A DNA stretch of 13,371 nucleotides from a virus. Below the pieces are notes generated by a model. It saw only the letters and a program-made list of their open reading frames with translations. It did not search any database and was not told where the DNA came from. This document shows, piece by piece, positions 6,859 to 13,371 of this stretch (positions are counted from its first letter, which is position 1; each line of letters begins with the position of its first letter). Position numbers and translations under genes: made by a program. The stretch lies in UHGV virus genome UHGV-0090146; one strand, given 5' to 3'.

Positions 6859-7284
6859 TCAATCCACATCAAAAGGCAAGCCAAAATAGAAAAGCGTGGC
6901 TTTTTTTAGTTCATCAAGTCCGTAAGCGATGGCGGCATAATGACCAAGCCTGCACATCTCAGTTAACACGGACGATTGCTCCTTGCTCACCCTGCTTTTG
7001 CTTTTGTCACGTCGCTTTGACTCAATCATCCCGCAACTGTGCTTCACTCCCGGCGTCATTATCACATTGTCGCCTATTCCAGTCTTAACACCCATCTTCT
7101 GGCGCTTCAGCACAAACTGCACCCTGCTTGATGTACCAGTTTCGTTTGGCACATGAAACCACAGAACATCAGGGAAGCGATGTTGCATCCATGTACCGTA
7201 ACCCATCTGGTCAGTCTCTTCTTTCGGACACTCCCCACGATAACCGCTATCAAACACCCATATACCACTGTCAAGCTGCTTCAC
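6859..7284 (-). CDS. VRR-NUC domain nuclease
   Basis: 141 aa with WFHVPNETG ... GIGDNVIM ... MIESK, matching the VRR-NUC / PD-(D/E)xK pattern. GTG start preceded by AGGAG with 6-nt spacer. Overlaps the helicase 3' end by 14 nt. Confidence 0.65.
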   Translation of the reverse strand: MKQLDSGIWVFDSGYRGECPKEETDQMGYGTWMQHRFPDVLWFHVPNETGTSSRVQFVLKRQKMGVKTGIGDNVIMTPGVKHSCGMIESKRRDKSKSRVSKEQSSVLTEMCRLGHYAAIAYGLDELKKATLFYFGLPFDVD

Positions 7285-9196
7285 TTTGTTCTCCTGTGAA
7301 ATCTTTTCTGTGGATTATATCTCGACCTTTATCATTAATACGATGCGTGATGCGTTTTGGCGCTTTAATCAACCCTGCATACATCATGAACTGTTTGGCG
7401 TTCTGGCATTTCAGGATTTTCCCAGCTATTGATTTATCATCAAGGTGAGGAAAGACCGCCTTTGCCTTGAACATGTTTTTCATGTGAGTTGCGCCGCCAT
7501 AAGGGTAGAAAACTTCATTAGCCCAGCCTTCTTTGCCATCACAACGGTTAATCCAGTAGCGATATAAAATTCCCTCTCCGTCCTTCGTCAACTGGACTTT
7601 GAAGTCCATAACATCAGCCCATTCGTTGTCGGTATACGCGCGTTCATTCAGTGCCGCATTCGGGTCGCGCAAAACATGATCGCAATGTCGACAATAACGC
7701 GCCGTTGGGTCGTTTTTAGTGCCGCAACCATCATCAAAAATGCGTATTCCGTGCTTATCGAAGCCGCAACGAATGTAACTGAAAAACTCCTCGCAACGAC
7801 CATCTGGCGATAGTGGGTCTTTTCCTATGCAGCGGCGCGCATATGGGCTGTTCATTGTTCCACATGTGTGACACGGAACTTGTTCGCCACTGCGTTTTGA
7901 ACGTTGTGCTTCGGCTTCTTCAAGAATTGGGTCTTCATATAGCTGACCAAGCTCAAACATCGTTCCTGAGAAATCAAGAACCAGATGGTCTTCTTTATGA
8001 TACCCGGCATCAATTTGTTCTTTCTTCAGCAGGCGCATTCCGCGGCCAAGCAACTGAACAAGAAGGGTGAGTGACATTATTTTTCGTAATATGCAGCTCG
8101 TATCCCATAACGGTATATTTACGCCAGTTGTAAGTGCGGCTATCTGGAATGTGAATTTTTTGCGCCCGGTGTATGCATCTTTTAGAGCCTTCCTTCTGGC
8201 TTTTGACCCCATATCTTCTGTAACTATTGAATAACTCCCTTCTGGTAGGTATTTTGCCGCCTCCTGACAATGTTTTTTACCAGCACATGTAATCAGTACG
8301 CCGTTTCTGTTTTTAGTCAACTCCATAACCTTGAGCATGATTTTCTGCGTCAACGTACCTTGCTCAAGAATTTCTTTTTGCATCTGCTTGAGCTGCTCGG
8401 AGGTAAAGTCCTGAGTGCCATCAACATCTGAACCATGAAAATCTGAAAGGTCATAATGCAGACTATCAACATCATGAAGACCAAAAATTGTTGGCACAAG
8501 AAAACCGTTTTCAACCATGTATTTGGTGTCTATGTTGATAATCTCCTTCTTCCAGAAAGCGCCTTTTATTGATGTAGTTCCGCGAAACGGTGAGCCTGTA
8601 TAACCTATTATTCTCAACTCATGGCCGTGCTTATCTTTGCACCTTTTCATTAGCTCATTAATTATCACTGCATACTGCGTATCACCATTATTAACAACAT
8701 CAATGTCATTAACCATATGATTTTCATCGATAAGCAGGAATCTTGGGCAAAAGTCAGAGAGCGCACCTTTTGCAATAACATTCCCTGACTCATCCTTTTT
8801 ATCAAACAAAGCATTTATAACAGTACCCTCAGAACCACAGATTATTGGATAAGTAGAACTTTTCCTACCCAACGAAGCACTGAATAGCGAGTTTCTAACA
8901 CCAAGTGACCATAGCTCTTCCGCATCTTGCTCCACTATTTCGCCCTGTCTTGATAAAATCATCCCTGAATAGCCCATTTCCTGAAAACGTTTTGCTATCA
9001 TGGCAATCATCAGGGACTTTCCACTACCGACACTTGCTGTTACATAGCTTGGTCCAACATAATGTCGTATCACATCACCTGTTAACTTATATATCAACCA
9101 CTGATATGGTCTTGGCTCGATATCACCAGTATCCAAGCAAGATTTCAGCAAGTTAATGTCAATCTCTGAAATCATTTTGTCTATTTTATGCGTCAT
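7271..9196 (-). CDS. SF2 (DEAD/DExH-box) DNA helicase with Cys-rich C-terminal zinc-ribbon region
   Basis: 641 aa with Walker A TASVGSGKS, DExH-like LLIDENH and an arginine-finger-like LLGRGMR. Cys cluster CHTCG...RRC...GRC...RCG...DDGCG...YCRHCDH follows. ATG at 9194-9196. Confidence 0.85.
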   Translation of the reverse strand: MTHKIDKMISEIDINLLKSCLDTGDIEPRPYQWLIYKLTGDVIRHYVGPSYVTASVGSGKSLMIAMIAKRFQEMGYSGMILSRQGEIVEQDAEELWSLGVRNSLFSASLGRKSSTYPIICGSEGTVINALFDKKDESGNVIAKGALSDFCPRFLLIDENHMVNDIDVVNNGDTQYAVIINELMKRCKDKHGHELRIIGYTGSPFRGTTSIKGAFWKKEIINIDTKYMVENGFLVPTIFGLHDVDSLHYDLSDFHGSDVDGTQDFTSEQLKQMQKEILEQGTLTQKIMLKVMELTKNRNGVLITCAGKKHCQEAAKYLPEGSYSIVTEDMGSKARRKALKDAYTGRKKFTFQIAALTTGVNIPLWDTSCILRKIMSLTLLVQLLGRGMRLLKKEQIDAGYHKEDHLVLDFSGTMFELGQLYEDPILEEAEAQRSKRSGEQVPCHTCGTMNSPYARRCIGKDPLSPDGRCEEFFSYIRCGFDKHGIRIFDDGCGTKNDPTARYCRHCDHVLRDPNAALNERAYTDNEWADVMDFKVQLTKDGEGILYRYWINRCDGKEGWANEVFYPYGGATHMKNMFKAKAVFPHLDDKSIAGKILKCQNAKQFMMYAGLIKAPKRITHRINDKGRDIIHRKDFTGEQSEAA

Positions 9197-9271
9197 AGCA
9201 ACTAACCTTTGTTGATGTTTCTACGTCAGTTAGCTTATACTCAATCTACACCAACAATCAAGGGTCAATTT
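9197..9271. promoter_or_regulatory. Divergent intergenic control region between helicase (-) and primase (+)
   Basis: 75-bp gap between divergent starts. Plus strand has TTGATG (9212-9217), 18-nt spacer, TATACT (9236-9241). A weaker candidate exists on the minus strand. Confidence 0.3.
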
Positions 9272-10225
9272 ATGAGATACGACTGGAAGGACATTGAACC
9301 AAAAATGCTCGGAAATTGGCAAGCTGCCATCATGTCTATCGTCAATGTGGATAGCAGAGTTTTCAATGGCAAGCACCAGCCATGCCCGTCATGCCTTGGC
9401 AAAGACAGGTATCGTTTTGATGATAACTTCGAAACAAAAGGCGATGGCGGAGCAATCTGCAACCAGTGTGGTTCCGGAAGCGGAATGAACTGGCTGATGA
9501 GACTATCCGGAATGAGCTTTCCTGAAGCACTGGAGGCGCTGGGAGGATTCCTGAACATGCACCCTCGCGAAAAGCTGGAGGCAATCAGGAAGGAACTACC
9601 GAAGATAAATCACAACGATGACTTCATCACCGAGCAGGAAGTCGCCGCGATCATGGCTAAAACGACTTGTGTCGCGATGAGTGAGTGGACGCTGATAAAT
9701 GGTATTGGTTGCGACATTAACGTCGTCAGAGGTAAATCCAGAGAGCTTATTGCGGTTGAGATGATGCGCTCTGACACAATGAAGCCATGCAACGTGGCAT
9801 TCATTGGCATGGGTGGTGATTCATTCAAAACTTTTTTCCGCGCAGGATACAACAAGTACTCAGCCATCAACGGTAAACTCACGCGCGGCGCGATAAGCCC
9901 AATCGGAGAAGATAACGGAAAGTTCATTTACCTGGTATCTGATTATGCAGATGCGTGGAAATGCCATTACTTCACTGGTGCGCATGTCTGGTGCTGCTGG
10001 TCGCCGGAAAACATGTGGGAAGTGGTGCGCTCTGTTAGCGATGAGGTGAAAGCGAGGTTGCGCTGCATAGTTAATTATAAATTCGACGAGCTGTGCGCCG
10101 CAGAGAATGCAGGCCTTCCGGTGATGCTTCCTGATGATGCTGACACTATCAGGATGGCAAAGAGAATCATGAGAAAGATTTATGACGCTGGCGAGTTGAT
10201 AGAAAAAATGTCAGTCAGCAGATAA
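9272..10225 (+). CDS. DNA primase (N-terminal zinc-ribbon; Toprim-like core inferred)
   Basis: Zinc-binding signature CPSCLGKDRYRFDD...GGAICNQCGSGSGMNWL, typical of phage/plasmid primase N-termini. AAGGG RBS 7 nt before ATG 9272. The track ORF begins at 9209 but would overlap the helicase start and candidate promoter. Confidence 0.65.
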   Translation: MRYDWKDIEPKMLGNWQAAIMSIVNVDSRVFNGKHQPCPSCLGKDRYRFDDNFETKGDGGAICNQCGSGSGMNWLMRLSGMSFPEALEALGGFLNMHPREKLEAIRKELPKINHNDDFITEQEVAAIMAKTTCVAMSEWTLINGIGCDINVVRGKSRELIAVEMMRSDTMKPCNVAFIGMGGDSFKTFFRAGYNKYSAINGKLTRGAISPIGEDNGKFIYLVSDYADAWKCHYFTGAHVWCCWSPENMWEVVRSVSDEVKARLRCIVNYKFDELCAAENAGLPVMLPDDADTIRMAKRIMRKIYDAGELIEKMSVSR

Positions 10226-10228
10226 AGG

Positions 10229-10253
10229 AAACCCTCCGATTGGAGGGTTTTTG
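10229..10253. terminator. Bidirectional rho-independent terminator between convergent primase and minus-strand operon
   Basis: Hairpin CCCTCC-GATT-GGAGGG (10232-10247) flanked by AAA on one side and TTTTT on the other. Confidence 0.75.
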
Positions 10254-10671: not shown

Positions 10672-10869
10672 TCAAACATCCTCATAACACCAATATGCAA
10701 CGCAAATTATTTCAACCAAATCATTTGATGATAAAAATTTATTACCATCATAAATTGCGTGAATTCTTTCACCATCAACAGTTAATGCCATAACATTTCT
10801 TCCTATCTGCGGACGCCAGAGATAGCAATCAAACCATTCAACATCATACCAATCATCTTCTGGACTCAT
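10672..10869 (-). CDS. Hypothetical protein (65 aa), translationally coupled
   Basis: ATG overlaps the stop of the 491-aa gene (ATGA) and is preceded by GAGGT. Its stop lies 1 nt before the ASCH gene start. No recognisable motif. Confidence 0.55.
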   Translation of the reverse strand: MSPEDDWYDVEWFDCYLWRPQIGRNVMALTVDGERIHAIYDGNKFLSSNDLVEIICVAYWCYEDV

Positions 10870-12341
10870 TTCAACCTCGGATTTATGTGCACAGTGTTTC
10901 CGATAAATACGCAGTAACCATCCTCTTCAAGTGATGGCAATACACTTGACCTGAGGCGGTCGTAAATTTTAGGTATTCCTTTGAATGGCCTAACATTTTT
11001 AAGTGAATCATAAAGCCACTTTACCGTTACGTTTGTTTTTCCTTTCTGAGCGGCAGAGCGTAGCTTTTCGGCAACAACATCAAATTCAGAACGCTCGCCA
11101 GCATATCCATTTGATTCCACGGCGTCGGTGAATGTTTTTGTCAGTGCGTCATAAACGCTGATAGCGCGACTAATTTCATTTTCACAGATAATTTTTGACC
11201 TCTTTCCTCCATCACACCAGTTTTCAGCAGCGTGAAATATTGCTGCCAGGCGGATTATTTGCTTATCAGCTTTACCCATTGCACCACGAAGAAGAACATG
11301 GTCCCACTTACCGCCTGGAAGGAAGTTTTTCTCCCACTGGTTTCGCAACATGCCGATCATTCTTGCTGAATCATTGTGAAGAGTCAGTCTTGTTTTTTCT
11401 GCTGACACAACATTATGTATAAATCTTGCATATTCCGACCTCAAGCTGTCTGGCATTGGCTTGCTTACAGGGCAGTCATTAACCATGTCCCAGTGTTCGC
11501 GATAGCCAAGCATTGATTGCTCGCGCAACATCAGGAAACGTTCAGAAAGACCGTTCCCCCTGTCGCCAGCGGCAAGAATGGCATCAATACTTTCATCCTG
11601 CGCAATCACACTTATGTTTCCAAGCACGTAACCAGATGAAACGCCACGACCAACACGAGCAGAGCCAATGAATCCTCCATCCCAGCCCTTCAGGATGACT
11701 TCGGCGTTTGCCTTTCCACCTTCTTTTCCGTAAGAGAGGCCAAGGCATGTGTTAAGGACGCTTGCCTCGTCACTTATCAGGTTAAAAAACCCACCTTCAT
11801 GGATGGCCTGATGCTGAACAGCCTCCGGCGTTGCGTCCGTCAGTGGATATGTAATCGTATAAAGCTCTTCCAGCTTCTCCTTTTCCCGAGCAATATCATC
11901 GCCGATTAGTGCCTTTGCATTCTGATTACTGGCCTCTTTATATGCCTTCATCAACTCTTCAATGCGAAGATTTATTTTTATGATCTGCTTTTCCATCTTT
12001 TTGGAAAGATTGTCATATTCAATCTTCACCGGATTCATGTGCATTGAGTTGATGGCGGTTTTCCCTGCTGATGGAGGCTGAGAAGTAACCACGTAAAGAG
12101 AAACTGGAAGTTCTGAATGGTAATACTCAACGCTAAAGTTTCTCGTCATTGCGCTGGCAACGCACCCAAGCAAATGCATGAACGATGTATTTATTGGGAA
12201 CTGAACGGCACGAGCTGCAGCGATTGCATAACGAGACAGCAAATCAGTCCGGTGCTCACTGGTAAGTTCTGTTTCTGAGTACGTTACATCACGCTCCTTA
12301 CCTTCCTTGATGTCAAGCCACATATTTGAGCTTGGTGTCAT
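10866..12341 (-). CDS. Hypothetical protein (491 aa) with degenerate P-loop NTPase-like motifs; possible DUF3987-like replication-associated protein
   Basis: Long ORF with SQPPSAGKTA (GKT, P-loop-like) and, about 90 aa later, FNLISDEAS (hydrophobic stretch plus DE, Walker-B-like). No canonical SD before ATG 12341 and an alternative Met at 12323, so the start is uncertain. Family assignment is from memory only. Confidence 0.8.
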   Translation of the reverse strand: MTPSSNMWLDIKEGKERDVTYSETELTSEHRTDLLSRYAIAAARAVQFPINTSFMHLLGCVASAMTRNFSVEYYHSELPVSLYVVTSQPPSAGKTAINSMHMNPVKIEYDNLSKKMEKQIIKINLRIEELMKAYKEASNQNAKALIGDDIAREKEKLEELYTITYPLTDATPEAVQHQAIHEGGFFNLISDEASVLNTCLGLSYGKEGGKANAEVILKGWDGGFIGSARVGRGVSSGYVLGNISVIAQDESIDAILAAGDRGNGLSERFLMLREQSMLGYREHWDMVNDCPVSKPMPDSLRSEYARFIHNVVSAEKTRLTLHNDSARMIGMLRNQWEKNFLPGGKWDHVLLRGAMGKADKQIIRLAAIFHAAENWCDGGKRSKIICENEISRAISVYDALTKTFTDAVESNGYAGERSEFDVVAEKLRSAAQKGKTNVTVKWLYDSLKNVRPFKGIPKIYDRLRSSVLPSLEEDGYCVFIGNTVHINPRLK

Positions 12342-12414
12342 GATGGAAGGCGACGCGAGCAGGAGATACTTTTAATTCCCTTGCTTCGTTGAAGATGTCT
12401 TGAGCTGTAATCAT
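12313..12414 (-). CDS. Possible small ORF (33 aa, MITAQDIFNEARELKVSPARVAFHHDTKLKYVA)
   Basis: ATG at 12412-12414 preceded by AAGGG with 7-nt spacer. It overlaps the stop of the upstream small ORF (TGATG) and the 5' end of the 491-aa gene. Too short to validate by sequence alone. Confidence 0.25.
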   Translation of the reverse strand: MITAQDIFNEARELKVSPARVAFHHDTKLKYVA

Positions 12415-12614
12415 CACTGAACCCTTAAAATTGTTAATTCGCATGTGTCCCTGTTGTATTTTGTCCAGTACACAAAGTCGCTTTTCTTCGAAATTTTGGA
12501 CAGGCACATCCTGAAAATAAGCACCTCAACACCTATCGCCTTAAGATTTATAATCTTTTTCTCGTCAACCCTCATTCTTGAGACTATATCGCGAACTCGT
12601 TTCATGTTTGACAT
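12414..12614 (-). CDS. Possible small ORF (66 aa from MSNMKRVRDIV...)
   Basis: Sits directly downstream of a strong minus-strand promoter candidate. Weak RBS. Basic protein with no recognisable domain. Confidence 0.3.
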   Translation of the reverse strand: MSNMKRVRDIVSRMRVDEKKIINLKAIGVEVLIFRMCLSKISKKSDFVYWTKYNRDTCELTILRVQ

Positions 12615-12650
12615 TTTTACCGCCAACCGTGGTTAATCATGGTGTGAAAG

Positions 12651-12679
12651 ATTATATAAAGATATAAACGAAATGGCAA
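12651..12679 (-). promoter_or_regulatory. Sigma70-like promoter for the minus-strand operon
   Basis: On the minus strand: TTGCCA (plus 12674-12679), exact 17-nt spacer, perfect TATAAT (plus 12651-12656). About 30-40 nt upstream of the first minus-strand ORF. Confidence 0.55.
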
Positions 12680-12740
12680 CCATATCATTCTTGGCGTGGT
12701 TTAAGCGACTAAATGGTTATCTGTGGGTAACGTGGGTAAG

Positions 12741-12767
12741 GCGTGGGGCAACCAACCTTCCCCACGA
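12741..12767. repeat. 27-bp repeat copy 1 (GCGTGGGGCAACCAACCTTCCCCACGA), internally palindromic
   Basis: Identical to the copy at 12929-12955. Contains inverted arms CGTGGGG / CCCCACG separated by 11 nt. Confidence 0.85.
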
Positions 12768-12928
12768 AGTTTTCCTATAAGTATATGTAATATAATAAAA
12801 TTATTATTATTTGGGTTAATGGGTACAAATGGATTATTTGAATATATTTATAAGGGGATGGGTATGAAATCTTCCCCTTTTTACCCACGAAAAATAAAAA
12901 CATTCAAATCAATTATTTACGATGAAAA

Positions 12929-12955
12929 GCGTGGGGCAACCAACCTTCCCCACGA
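12929..12955. repeat. 27-bp repeat copy 2 (identical to 12741-12767)
   Basis: Exact 27/27 match to copy 1, 188 bp away, in the same orientation. Confidence 0.85.
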
Positions 12956-13008
12956 CCTGCCCCACGGGCAAAAATTTACCCCACGAGCACGTTTTTAACG
13001 CATTCCTG

Positions 13009-13037
13009 TTGACGTGGAATCATAGCTGATGTAGATT
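13009..13037 (+). promoter_or_regulatory. Sigma70-like promoter for the rightward small-gene operon
   Basis: TTGACG (13009-13014), 17-nt spacer, TAGATT (13032-13037). GAGGGTGAAGAG RBS and ATG at 13068 lie about 30 nt downstream. Confidence 0.5.
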
Positions 13038-13067
13038 GAACTCATCGAAACAAACGAGGGTGAAGAG

Positions 13068-13214
13068 ATGAAAATCAAAGACCGTGAAGAATTTGAAGAT
13101 GCACAGGCTATGGCTCGCATTGCAGTTGAACGCACAAACAACAGCATTCCAGCAGATGCATTCTGGAACGCTGCAATGCAGGCATTAATCTCAGCGTATG
13201 GGTTAAGCAAATGA
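13068..13214 (+). CDS. Hypothetical small protein (48 aa, MKIKDREEFEDAQAMARIAVERTNN...)
   Basis: Not in the ORF track because it is short. RBS GAGGGTG upstream. Its stop overlaps the next ATG (ATGA). Confidence 0.45.
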   Translation: MKIKDREEFEDAQAMARIAVERTNNSIPADAFWNAAMQALISAYGLSK

Positions 13215-13306
13215 CAGGCGCATCATTTGAACTTATCGCCAGTCTGGTTATCGTGGCATTCATCATTATCGCAGTGGCAGTTTCTAAATCAGGATATAAG
13301 GAGTAA
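13211..13306 (+). CDS. Hypothetical small membrane peptide (31 aa, single predicted TM helix)
   Basis: MTGASFELIASLVIVAFIIIAVAVSKSGYKE has a hydrophobic core flanked by charged residues. ATGA overlap with the upstream gene. The downstream AAGGAG serves the next gene. Confidence 0.35.
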   Translation: MTGASFELIASLVIVAFIIIAVAVSKSGYKE

Positions 13307-13309
13307 TAA

Positions 13310-13371
13310 ATGGCAAAGACTATCTATCGTCGCGAAAAACTGGAACAAGAACTCGGTCACGTTGGCGCGCA
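13310..13371 (+). CDS. Hypothetical protein, 5' end only (MAKTIYRREKLEQELGHVGA...)
   Basis: ATG at 13310 preceded by AAGGAG at optimal spacing. ORF runs off the window end. Confidence 0.5.
   Translation, partial: MAKTIYRREKLEQELGHVGA

What the first reader, a model, noticed from the sequence alone, without database searches (positions are those of the whole stretch)
10866..12341. 491-aa protein with degenerate P-loop and Walker-B-like motifs; start site ambiguous
SAGKT sits in a non-canonical P-loop context (QPPSAGKT lacks the first Gly of GxxxxGKT), with a hydrophobic-DE element about 90 aa downstream. That is consistent with a divergent NTPase or helicase-like fold. Its position beside the primase/helicase block and the repeat region makes it a candidate initiator or helicase-loader-type protein. 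The annotated ATG has no SD and overlaps an upstream small ORF, so translation may depend on coupling.
Basis: partly seen in the sequence, partly recalled or inferred. Interest (0 to 1): 0.6.

Follow-up and report, generated by a model that had tools for sequence, protein, structure and literature searches.

The report
Frameshifted phage MCM-like (DUF3987) helicase gene
The 491-aa ORF is an ordinary, already-described phage replicative helicase of the DUF3987 (MCM-like AAA+) family, and its odd start exists because this genome alone lacks 5 bases that put the gene's real first 25 codons out of frame.

Summary

The 'degenerate' P-loop QPPxxGK[ST] is the family signature. Gln is at position 1 in 241 of 258 homologues that carry a GK[ST].

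DUF3987 was predicted to be a phage replicative helicase in 2016. One member was shown to be a Walker A/B-dependent 5'-3' helicase in 2025.

The start-site oddity has a concrete cause. All 10 relatives examined carry a 517-codon gene. Its ATG (window 12414) has a Shine-Dalgarno sequence and a TGATG overlap with the upstream gene. The window alone lacks 5 nt (CATCATGGCATGA to CATCATGA, about 12339-12343). That leaves a 33-codon remnant ORF and the 491-codon remainder, which has no SD.

I cannot tell whether the deletion is a real mutation or an assembly error. The finding is ordinary and already known.

The parts
10866..12341 (-). 491-codon ORF plus stop. It corresponds to residues 27-517 of the ancestral 517-aa DUF3987 helicase.
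   Evidence: It is 99% identical to P0001 (517 aa) over its full length.
12313..12414 (-). 33-codon remnant ORF MITAQDIFNEARELKVSPARVAFHH-DTKLKYVA*. It holds the ancestral start, 25 native helicase codons, 8 out-of-frame codons and a TGA stop.
   Evidence: Re-inserting CATGG restores a 517-aa reading frame that matches P0001.
12339..12343 (.). Site of the 5-nt deletion. Relatives read CCAT-CATGG-CATGAC and the window reads CCAT-CATGAC. The junction is ambiguous within the repeated CATG.
   Evidence: The 5 nt are present in 10 of 10 relatives. This is the only indel in 3.16 kb against L002.
12412..12414 (-). Conserved (ancestral) ATG of the helicase gene. It overlaps the TGA of the upstream gene by 1 nt (TGATG).
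   Evidence: Relatives annotate their 1554-nt CDS from this ATG.
12422..12426 (-). Shine-Dalgarno AAGGG, 7 nt upstream of the ancestral ATG.
   Evidence: Duplex energy is -5.0 kcal/mol, against +1.2 for ATG 12341 and +0.1 for ATG 12323.
11136..12191 (-). Pfam DUF3987 (PF13148) match, residues 51-402.
   Evidence: 121.7 bits against a cut-off of 27.
12057..12080 (-). Walker A variant QPPSAGKT, residues 88-95.
   Evidence: The family signature is QP[PSA]xxGK[ST].
11865..12062 (-). Long predicted helical hairpin (residues 94-136 and 140-159) between the P-loop and the Walker B strand. It explains the 97-residue spacing between the motifs.
   Evidence: secondary structure of the model, pLDDT 89-97 in this stretch.
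11766..11789 (-). Walker B strand FFNLISDE, residues 185-192.
   Evidence: S190 and E192 are invariant.
11622..11675 (-). Predicted beta-hairpin (residues 223-240) just before the sensor-1 strand, with invariant R229. It is a candidate pre-sensor-1 hairpin for contacting DNA.
11592..11609 (-). VIAQDE, residues 245-250. This is the end of the core strand and the candidate sensor-1 position. A247 and Q248 are invariant.
   Evidence: The role is inferred.
11535..11546 (-). SERF, residues 266-269. E267 and R268 are invariant. It is a candidate arginine finger and resembles the MCM 'SRF' motif.
   Evidence: The equivalence to MCM was not shown by any alignment here.
10869..11096 (-). C-terminal winged-helix domain, residues about 416-491.
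12414..12626 (-). Upstream gene of the leftward operon, about 66-70 aa with an uncertain start. Its stop overlaps the ancestral helicase ATG.
   Evidence: Among the relatives compared it resembles only Klebsiella phage MK54 gp51.
12651..12679 (-). Promoter-like site TTGCCA-17-TATAAT (11 of 12), candidate leftward promoter of the operon.
   Evidence: This is a consensus match only.
10672..10869 (-). Downstream 65-aa ORF. Its ATG overlaps the helicase stop (ATGA) and it has a good SD.
   Evidence: -6.6 kcal/mol.
9209..10225 (+). DnaG-type primase gene (Zn_Ribbon_Prim; PHROG 510), the helicase's likely partner.

Best explanation
The ORF encodes the phage's replicative DNA helicase, a member of the DUF3987 family.

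Shown here: family membership, an MCM-like AAA+ fold, invariant ATP-site residues, a C-terminal winged helix, and a neighbouring DnaG-type primase gene.

Inferred from the family and from AAA+ helicases in general: the protein forms a ring, probably a hexamer, and binds ATP at subunit interfaces. It would use K94/T95 (Walker A), E192 (Walker B) and R268 from the neighbouring subunit. It would pull single-stranded DNA through the ring, with the hairpin at residues 223-240, to unwind the fork. It would work with the adjacent primase, and with a DNA polymerase encoded elsewhere, since the window encodes none.

The 491-aa length is not the natural gene. The conserved gene has 517 codons and starts at ATG 12414, which has an SD and a TGATG overlap with the upstream gene. 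In this window a 5-nt deletion at about 12339-12343 shifts the frame after codon 25.

I lean, at about 55:45, to the deletion being a real slippage event between the CATG repeats rather than an assembly error. If it is real, ribosomes coupled from the upstream gene would translate the 33-codon remnant and stop at TGA 12315-12313. The helicase body could then be made only by SD-independent re-initiation. The candidate starts are ATG 12341 (29 nt of overlap with the remnant ORF) and ATG 12323 (11 nt of overlap). The product would lack a conserved N-terminal two-helix element.
For: Family membership:
- Pfam DUF3987, 121.7 bits against a cut-off of 27.
- PHROG 2373 'DNA helicase', E 7e-186.
- RefSeq relatives are annotated 'DNA helicase'.
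- 1915 clusters (50% identity) match at E<=1e-3.

Fold:
- AF2 model with pLDDT 89.7 and pTM 0.88.
- The Foldseek PDB top hits are MCM2-7 subunits, probability 1.0.

Motifs: Q88-P-P-x-x-G93-K94, S190, E192, Q248, E267 and R268 are invariant.

Context: primase, SSB, a Sak4-like ATPase, an exonuclease and an SF2 helicase lie in the same module. Homologues are fused to a DnaG zinc ribbon, the DnaB N-terminal domain or a BT4734-type AEP domain.

Literature:
- DUF3987 was predicted to be an SF6, MCM-related phage replicative helicase with a C-terminal wHTH, associated with primases (PMC4889955).
- The PriCT-DUF3987 protein AgaPH is an oligomeric 5'-3' helicase that uses ATP or dATP. Walker A and Walker B mutations abolish its activity (PMC11724360).

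Frameshift:
- The 5 nt are absent only from the window, in 10 of 10 comparisons. It is the only indel in 3.16 kb.
- The relatives' CDS is 1554 nt, and the listed homologues are mostly 508-531 aa.
- The N-terminal segment is alignable in about 49 of the 54 homologues in the alignment.
- In the full-length model of the 99%-identical P0001 that segment folds as two helices with pLDDT 88-91. The first 20 residues of the truncated model drop to about 63.
- SD energies are -5.0 for ATG 12414, +1.2 for ATG 12341 and +0.1 for ATG 12323.
Against: - No activity was measured for this protein or for any close relative.
- No sequence-level link to MCM could be reproduced here. hhalign against a small MCM profile aligned only the P-loop (probability 0.3%). 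Pfam scans of 55 members gave no MCM hit. PDB sequence searches were empty. The MCM relationship therefore rests on the predicted structure and on published HHsearch results.
- The window also encodes an SF2 RadD-like helicase (7271..9196). Which helicase drives the fork has not been proved.
- Whether the deletion is real or an error cannot be decided from one sequence.
- A few homologues (P0019, P0027, P0038, P0088; 489-493 aa) naturally lack the N-terminal element. Its loss may therefore be harmless.
Confidence: 0.85

Rival explanations
1. The 5-nt gap is a sequencing or assembly artefact. The phage carries the normal 517-codon gene starting at 12414, and there is no start-site puzzle. This rival concerns only the gene's start; the helicase assignment does not change.
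For: - No other sequence shows the deletion. Ten of 10 relatives carry the 5 nt. The members listed from the 367-member 90%-identity cluster are 517-527 aa. The exact 491-aa product is absent from a collection of 15 billion proteins.
- The gene is otherwise intact and 99% identical to P0001.
- A second unique deletion of 43 nt lies only about 480 nt away. That could point to a locally poor assembly.
- Fragmented versions of this gene occur in other phage records.
Against: - A 5-nt loss between CATG direct repeats is typical of replication slippage. It is not typical of homopolymer-type read errors.
- It is the only indel in 3.16 kb of 93.5%-identical alignment, so the sequence is not generally indel-prone.
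- The 43-nt deletion also has short direct repeats (TAA) at its ends.
Confidence: 0.4
2. One reading: the protein is mainly a replication initiator or a helicase loader. It would bind the nearby repeats and load another helicase, rather than being the fork helicase itself.
For: - It has a C-terminal winged helix.
- Conserved CGTGGGG-N11-CCCCACG palindromes and extra CCCCACG copies lie 330-570 nt upstream of the gene. The heptamer occurs 7 times against 0.61 expected.
- They flank a very conserved AT-rich core.
- A second helicase (SF2) is encoded nearby.
Against: - The only characterised family member is a true helicase.
- Homologues are fused to primase domains and to the DnaB N-terminal domain.
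- SF2 helicases are not typical replicative fork helicases; that is background knowledge.
- No binding to the repeats has been tested.
Confidence: 0.1
3. The deletion is real and inactivating. In this genome the gene is a pseudogene, for example in a defective or non-propagating variant captured by sequencing.
For: - The natural start, its SD and its coupling are disconnected from the body of the gene.
- No SD precedes either internal ATG.
- The lost N-terminal element is conserved and is confidently folded in the full-length model.
- A second unique lesion of 43 nt sits in the conserved AT-rich intergenic core.
Against: - The remaining 491 codons carry no further stop or indel and are 99% identical to intact relatives. 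Any inactivation would therefore be very recent.
- Natural homologues without the N-terminal element exist.
- An ATG lies 8 nt upstream of the remnant ORF's stop (ATGTGGCTTGA), which is a workable geometry for re-initiation. That last point is inference.
Confidence: 0.1

Closest known systems
DUF3987 family (Pfam PF13148), including AgaPH, the PriCT-DUF3987 helicase of a Seonamhaeicola mobile element (PMC11724360), and the phage DUF3987 'SF6' helicases of Kazlauskas et al. 2016 (PMC4889955)
   Same: It gives a full-length Pfam match. [quoted passage not shown] Close relatives in RefSeq are already named 'DNA helicase'.
   Different: It has no PriCT domain. Instead it has a short N-terminal two-helix element, which is out of frame in this window. 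The primase partner is DnaG-type, not AEP. Activity and polarity are untested for this clade.
MCM helicases (archaeal MCM, eukaryotic MCM2-7, MCM8/9)
   Different: HMMER and hhalign detected no sequence similarity here. The MCM N-terminal OB-fold and zinc domain are absent. A roughly 65-residue helical hairpin is inserted after the P-loop helix. The characterised DUF3987 member moves 5'-3', whereas MCM moves 3'-5'.
Initiator-helicases of mobile elements: SaPI Rep / SaPI5 primase-helicase and SCCmec Cch (DUF927), and P4 alpha
   Same: These are AAA+ or P-loop ring helicases of phage-like elements, often next to or fused with a primase, with a C-terminal DNA-binding domain. Repeats lie near the gene.

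Membership tests
DUF3987 (PF13148) helicase family | Match to the Pfam model above the gathering score over most of the model | tested here: met
   121.7 bits against 27, model positions 5-356 of 364. All 55 aligned homologues also match.
DUF3987 (PF13148) helicase family | [quoted passage not shown] | tested here: met
   QPPSAGKT and LISDE. Q88, P89, P90, G93, K94, S190 and E192 are invariant in 55 sequences.
DUF3987 (PF13148) helicase family | [quoted passage not shown] | tested here: met
DUF3987 (PF13148) helicase family | Fusion to, or neighbourhood with, an AEP or DnaG primase | tested here: met
   The DnaG-type primase gene is at 9209..10225. Homologues are fused to a DnaG zinc ribbon, the DnaB N-terminal domain or a BT4734 AEP domain.
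DUF3987 (PF13148) helicase family | ATP-dependent DNA unwinding by an oligomer | not testable with these tools
   Shown only for AgaPH (PMC11724360).
MCM family (PF00493) | Sequence match to the MCM AAA+ model | tested here: not met
   No MCM hit in Pfam scans at E<=5 for 55 members. hhalign against a profile of three MCM sequences gave probability 0.3%. PDB sequence searches were empty. The literature reports 98% HHsearch probability for another DUF3987 member.
MCM family (PF00493) | MCM-type AAA+ core fold | tested here: met
MCM family (PF00493) | N-terminal OB-fold / zinc-binding DNA-binding domain | tested here: not met
   Only about 65 residues (about 90 in the full-length form), mostly helical, precede the first strands of the AAA+ domain. 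No such Pfam domain is found.
AAA+ initiators and loaders (ORC/Cdc6, DnaA, DnaC) | Best structural and sequence similarity to the initiator clade | tested here: not met
Initiator-helicase (P4 alpha / SaPI Rep type) | Sequence-specific binding of the helicase to iterons at the origin | not testable with these tools
   Candidate sites exist at 12742-12766, 12930-12954, 12960 and 12979. No binding data exist.

The most novel reading that the evidence does not exclude
The DUF3987 helicase is a self-loading initiator-helicase. Its C-terminal winged helix would recognise the conserved CGTGGGG-N11-CCCCACG palindromes and the direct CCCCACG copies. These flank an almost invariant AT-rich core 330-570 nt upstream, which would be the phage origin.

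On this reading the window's two unique deletions are real and are tolerated together. One removes 5 nt and with it the helicase's N-terminal element. The other removes 43 nt from the AT-rich core. That would make this genome a natural double mutant of the initiator and its origin.
Probability: 0.15. Interest if true: 0.5.

Novelty: already known. Interest (0 to 1): 0.15.

Why it matters
The main value is for annotation. The gene should be labelled a DUF3987-family (MCM-like) replicative helicase. It should be flagged as frameshifted near its 5' end, and not described as a 491-aa protein with an unusual start.

If the deletion is real, it is a small natural experiment. It would show that the conserved N-terminal two-helix element and the SD-coupled start are dispensable for phage growth.

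The family is of some general interest as a bacterial-virus relative of MCM. That was already published in 2016, with biochemistry in 2025.

Tried and rejected
- PDB sequence searches with the protein and with a 55-sequence profile found nothing meaningful.
- NCBIfam gave no hit for this protein.
- I tried to reproduce the MCM link at sequence level. Real MCM AAA+ sequences were recovered from PDB alignments, aligned and compared with the family profile by hhalign. Only 13 P-loop columns aligned, at probability 0.3%. The MCM relationship therefore rests on structure prediction and on the literature.
- Permissive Pfam scans of all 55 members gave no MCM, Mg-chelatase or AAA hits.
- Programmed +1 frameshifting at the remnant ORF's stop (GCT TGA C) was considered and rejected. 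There is no slippery codon and no upstream SD-like stimulator. The product would also lose the invariant Trp (W8 of the 491-aa numbering), which all 55 homologues keep.
- Other in-frame starts upstream of 12341 were checked. There is no ATG, GTG or TTG between the in-frame TAA and 12341.
- An Rfam scan of 12300-13371 found nothing credible.
- Paper searches on Vi II-E1 and its repeat found nothing useful. The Vi II-E1 genome paper, tried by a PubMed id recalled from memory, is not held.
- The exact 491-aa protein is not in the large protein and contig collections, so no independent copy of the deletion could be found.

Full report
**1. What is at the coordinates**

The ORF 10866..12341 lies on the minus strand, begins with ATG and encodes 491 aa.
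- QPPSAGKT is residues 88-95 (window 12057-12080).
- FFNLISDE is residues 185-192 (window 11766-11789), 97 residues after the P-loop lysine.
- The ATG at 12341 has no Shine-Dalgarno. The best anti-SD duplex is +1.2 kcal/mol, against a background mean of -2.2.
- The ORF overlaps ORF 12313..12507 by 29 nt.

**2. Genomic setting**

The window is the tail-fibre and replication region of an enterobacterial siphophage. Its closest relatives are Escherichia phages HC6 and Bas79, Salmonella phage Vi II-E1 (Macdonaldcampvirus) and Shigella phage DS8. Identity is 88-90% over the window and about 95-96% over this gene.

Reading leftward on the minus strand, the operon contains:
- a promoter-like site at 12679-12651;
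- a small gene at 12414..12626;
- the gene in question;
- a 65-aa ORF coupled to it by ATGA;
- an ASCH/DUF3850 protein.

A DnaG-type primase gene (9209..10225) converges on that operon. Beyond it lie an SF2 RadD-like helicase, a PDDEXK exonuclease, a Sak4-like ATPase and an SSB. No DNA polymerase gene is present in the window.

**3. Identity of the protein**

- It matches Pfam DUF3987 at 121.7 bits, against a cut-off of 27, over residues 51-402.
- It matches PHROG 2373 'DNA helicase' at E 7e-186.
- RefSeq relatives are already named 'DNA helicase'.
- The family is large. An exhaustive search found 1915 representatives (50%-identity clusters) at E<=1e-3.
- Longer homologues fuse the domain to a DnaG CHC2 zinc ribbon, to the DnaB N-terminal domain or to a BT4734-type AEP primase domain.

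**4. The motifs are conserved, not degenerate**

In 55 aligned homologues with 34-99% identity, these residues are invariant: Q88, P89, P90, G93, K94, S190, E192, Q248, E267, R268 and R281. Of 258 homologues with a GK[ST], 241 have Gln where the canonical Walker A has its first Gly. QP[PSA]xxGK[ST] is therefore the family's own Walker A. The long spacing between Walker A and Walker B comes from a predicted helical hairpin at residues 94-159.

**5. Fold**

An AlphaFold2 model built on the 55-sequence alignment is confident, with pLDDT 89.7 and pTM 0.88.
- Next come RavA (11.3), BchI (10.4), ComM (9.6), SCCmec Cch (9.3) and the SaPI5 primase-helicase (8.6).
- ORC/Cdc6 reach only 7.5-8.7. No DnaA or DnaC chain is in the top 60.
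- Foldseek agrees, with MCM2-7 subunits at probability 1.0.
- In the viral structure library the matches are DUF3987 proteins, helicases and primase-helicase fusions.
- Residues 416-491 form a winged helix.

I could not reproduce an MCM link at sequence level.

**6. Literature**

Kazlauskas et al. 2016 (PMC4889955) assigned phage DUF3987 proteins to superfamily 6, distantly related to MCM, with 98% HHsearch probability for one member. They noted the C-terminal wHTH and the association with AEP or DnaG primases, and proposed that these proteins are replicative helicases.

A 2018 study also predicted helicase function from domain substitution (PMC5862659).

In 2025 the PriCT-DUF3987 protein AgaPH was purified (PMC11724360). 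It is oligomeric and binds its PrimPol partner. It unwinds 5'-tailed and forked DNA using ATP or dATP. Walker A or Walker B mutation abolishes this activity.

The function proposed here is therefore already established for the family.

**7. The start-site puzzle**

Most of the 120 listed homologues are 508-531 aa, including P0001, which is 99% identical and 517 aa. I aligned the 5' region with six phage genomes and four metagenomic contigs. All ten read CCAT-CATGG-CATGAC where the window reads CCAT-CATGAC. This 5-nt gap is the only indel in 3.16 kb of alignment to L002 at 93.5% identity.

In the relatives the gene starts at the ATG equivalent to window 12414-12412. In the window that ATG has an AAGGG Shine-Dalgarno (-5.0 kcal/mol) and overlaps the stop of the upstream gene as TGATG. 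From that ATG the window encodes MITAQDIFNEARELKVSPARVAFHH, then shifts frame and stops after eight more codons at 12313. Re-inserting CATGG restores a 517-aa product.

The lost 26 residues are alignable in about 49 of the 54 homologues in the alignment. In the full-length model they form two helices with pLDDT 88-91. In the truncated model the new N-terminus is poorly ordered, with pLDDT about 63. A few homologues of 489-493 aa lack the element naturally.

**8. Is the deletion real or an error?**

For a real deletion:
- The loss lies between CATG direct repeats, as in slippage.
- The sequence is otherwise free of indels.
- A second unique deletion nearby is also flanked by a short repeat.

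For an artefact:
- The deletion was seen in no other sequence.
- The exact 491-aa product is absent from a collection of 15 billion proteins.
- The rest of the gene is pristine.

I put it at roughly 55:45 in favour of a real deletion. If real, expression of the helicase body needs SD-independent re-initiation. The candidate starts are ATG 12341 and ATG 12323; the second lies 8 nt upstream of the remnant's TGA. This is inference. A programmed +1 frameshift was considered and rejected, because it would remove the invariant Trp.

**9. Initiator or loader?**

The structural ranking, the family biochemistry and the primase and DnaB-N fusions all favour a fork helicase. A dual role in origin recognition is not excluded.

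The divergent intergenic region 12690-13040 holds two CGTGGGG-N11-CCCCACG palindromes (12742-12766 and 12930-12954) and further CCCCACG copies. The heptamer occurs 7 times in the window against 0.61 expected. The arms are conserved and the spacers vary among relatives. The Vi II-E1 record already annotates this repeat. Between the palindromes lies an almost invariant AT-rich core, from which the window uniquely lacks 43 nt.

This could be an origin or a pair of regulated divergent promoters. Nothing here tests whether the helicase binds it.

**10. Verdict**

This is an ordinary, already-described gene: a DUF3987 / MCM-like replicative helicase. The useful correction is that its apparent start is the product of a 5-nt frameshifting deletion unique to this sequence. 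Interest is low.

Noticed in passing
window 12690-13040: The divergent intergenic region holds two CGTGGGG-N11-CCCCACG palindromes (12742-12766, 12930-12954) and extra CCCCACG copies at 12960 and 12979. They flank an AT-rich core that is almost invariant among relatives and more conserved than the neighbouring coding DNA. The arms are conserved and the spacers vary. The Vi II-E1 record annotates this repeat. It could be an origin or an operator region.
   Followed up: partly
window ~12824-12826: The window uniquely lacks a 43-nt AT-rich segment (AATATTATTATTCATATTATAGATAGTAATTAACATAATATTA) that every relative compared here carries, apart from the more divergent MK54. The palindrome spacing is therefore 188 nt instead of 231-243. 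The deletion is flanked by a TAA direct repeat. It is the second lesion unique to this sequence within about 500 nt of the helicase frameshift.
   Followed up: partly
window 12414-12626 (- strand): The gene upstream of the helicase has a homologue only in Klebsiella phage MK54 (gp51). HC6/Bas79 and DS8/Vi II-E1 carry unrelated genes at this position. The mosaic junction falls at, or within a few bases of, the helicase start codon.
   Followed up: partly
window 12852-12882: A hairpin, AAGGGGA-N14-TCCCCTT followed by TTT, sits inside the conserved intergenic core and is conserved in relatives. It could be a terminator or a small-RNA end. There is no Rfam match.
   Followed up: no
window 10227-10252: A terminator-like hairpin that reads on both strands (GGAAACCCTCC...GGAGGGTTTTT) lies between the convergent primase gene and the ASCH/DUF3850 gene.
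   Followed up: no
window 9209-9272: The mechanical primase ORF starts at a TTG only 12 nt from the start of the divergent SF2 helicase gene. The real start may be the ATG about 63 nt further in (MRYDWKDIE...).
   Followed up: no
homologues P0164, P0182, P0234: The DUF3987 domain occurs fused to a DnaG CHC2 zinc ribbon, to the DnaB N-terminal domain and to a BT4734-type AEP primase domain. The DnaB-N fusion is a striking swap of the helicase motor behind a primase-binding domain.
   Followed up: partly
BFVD matches: Several phage records hold only fragments of this gene as separate proteins of 166-345 aa: Salmonella phage 36, Shigella phage ISF001, Escherichia phage Jk06 and Vibrio phage Vc1. 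Split or frameshifted annotations of DUF3987 helicases therefore seem common.
   Followed up: no
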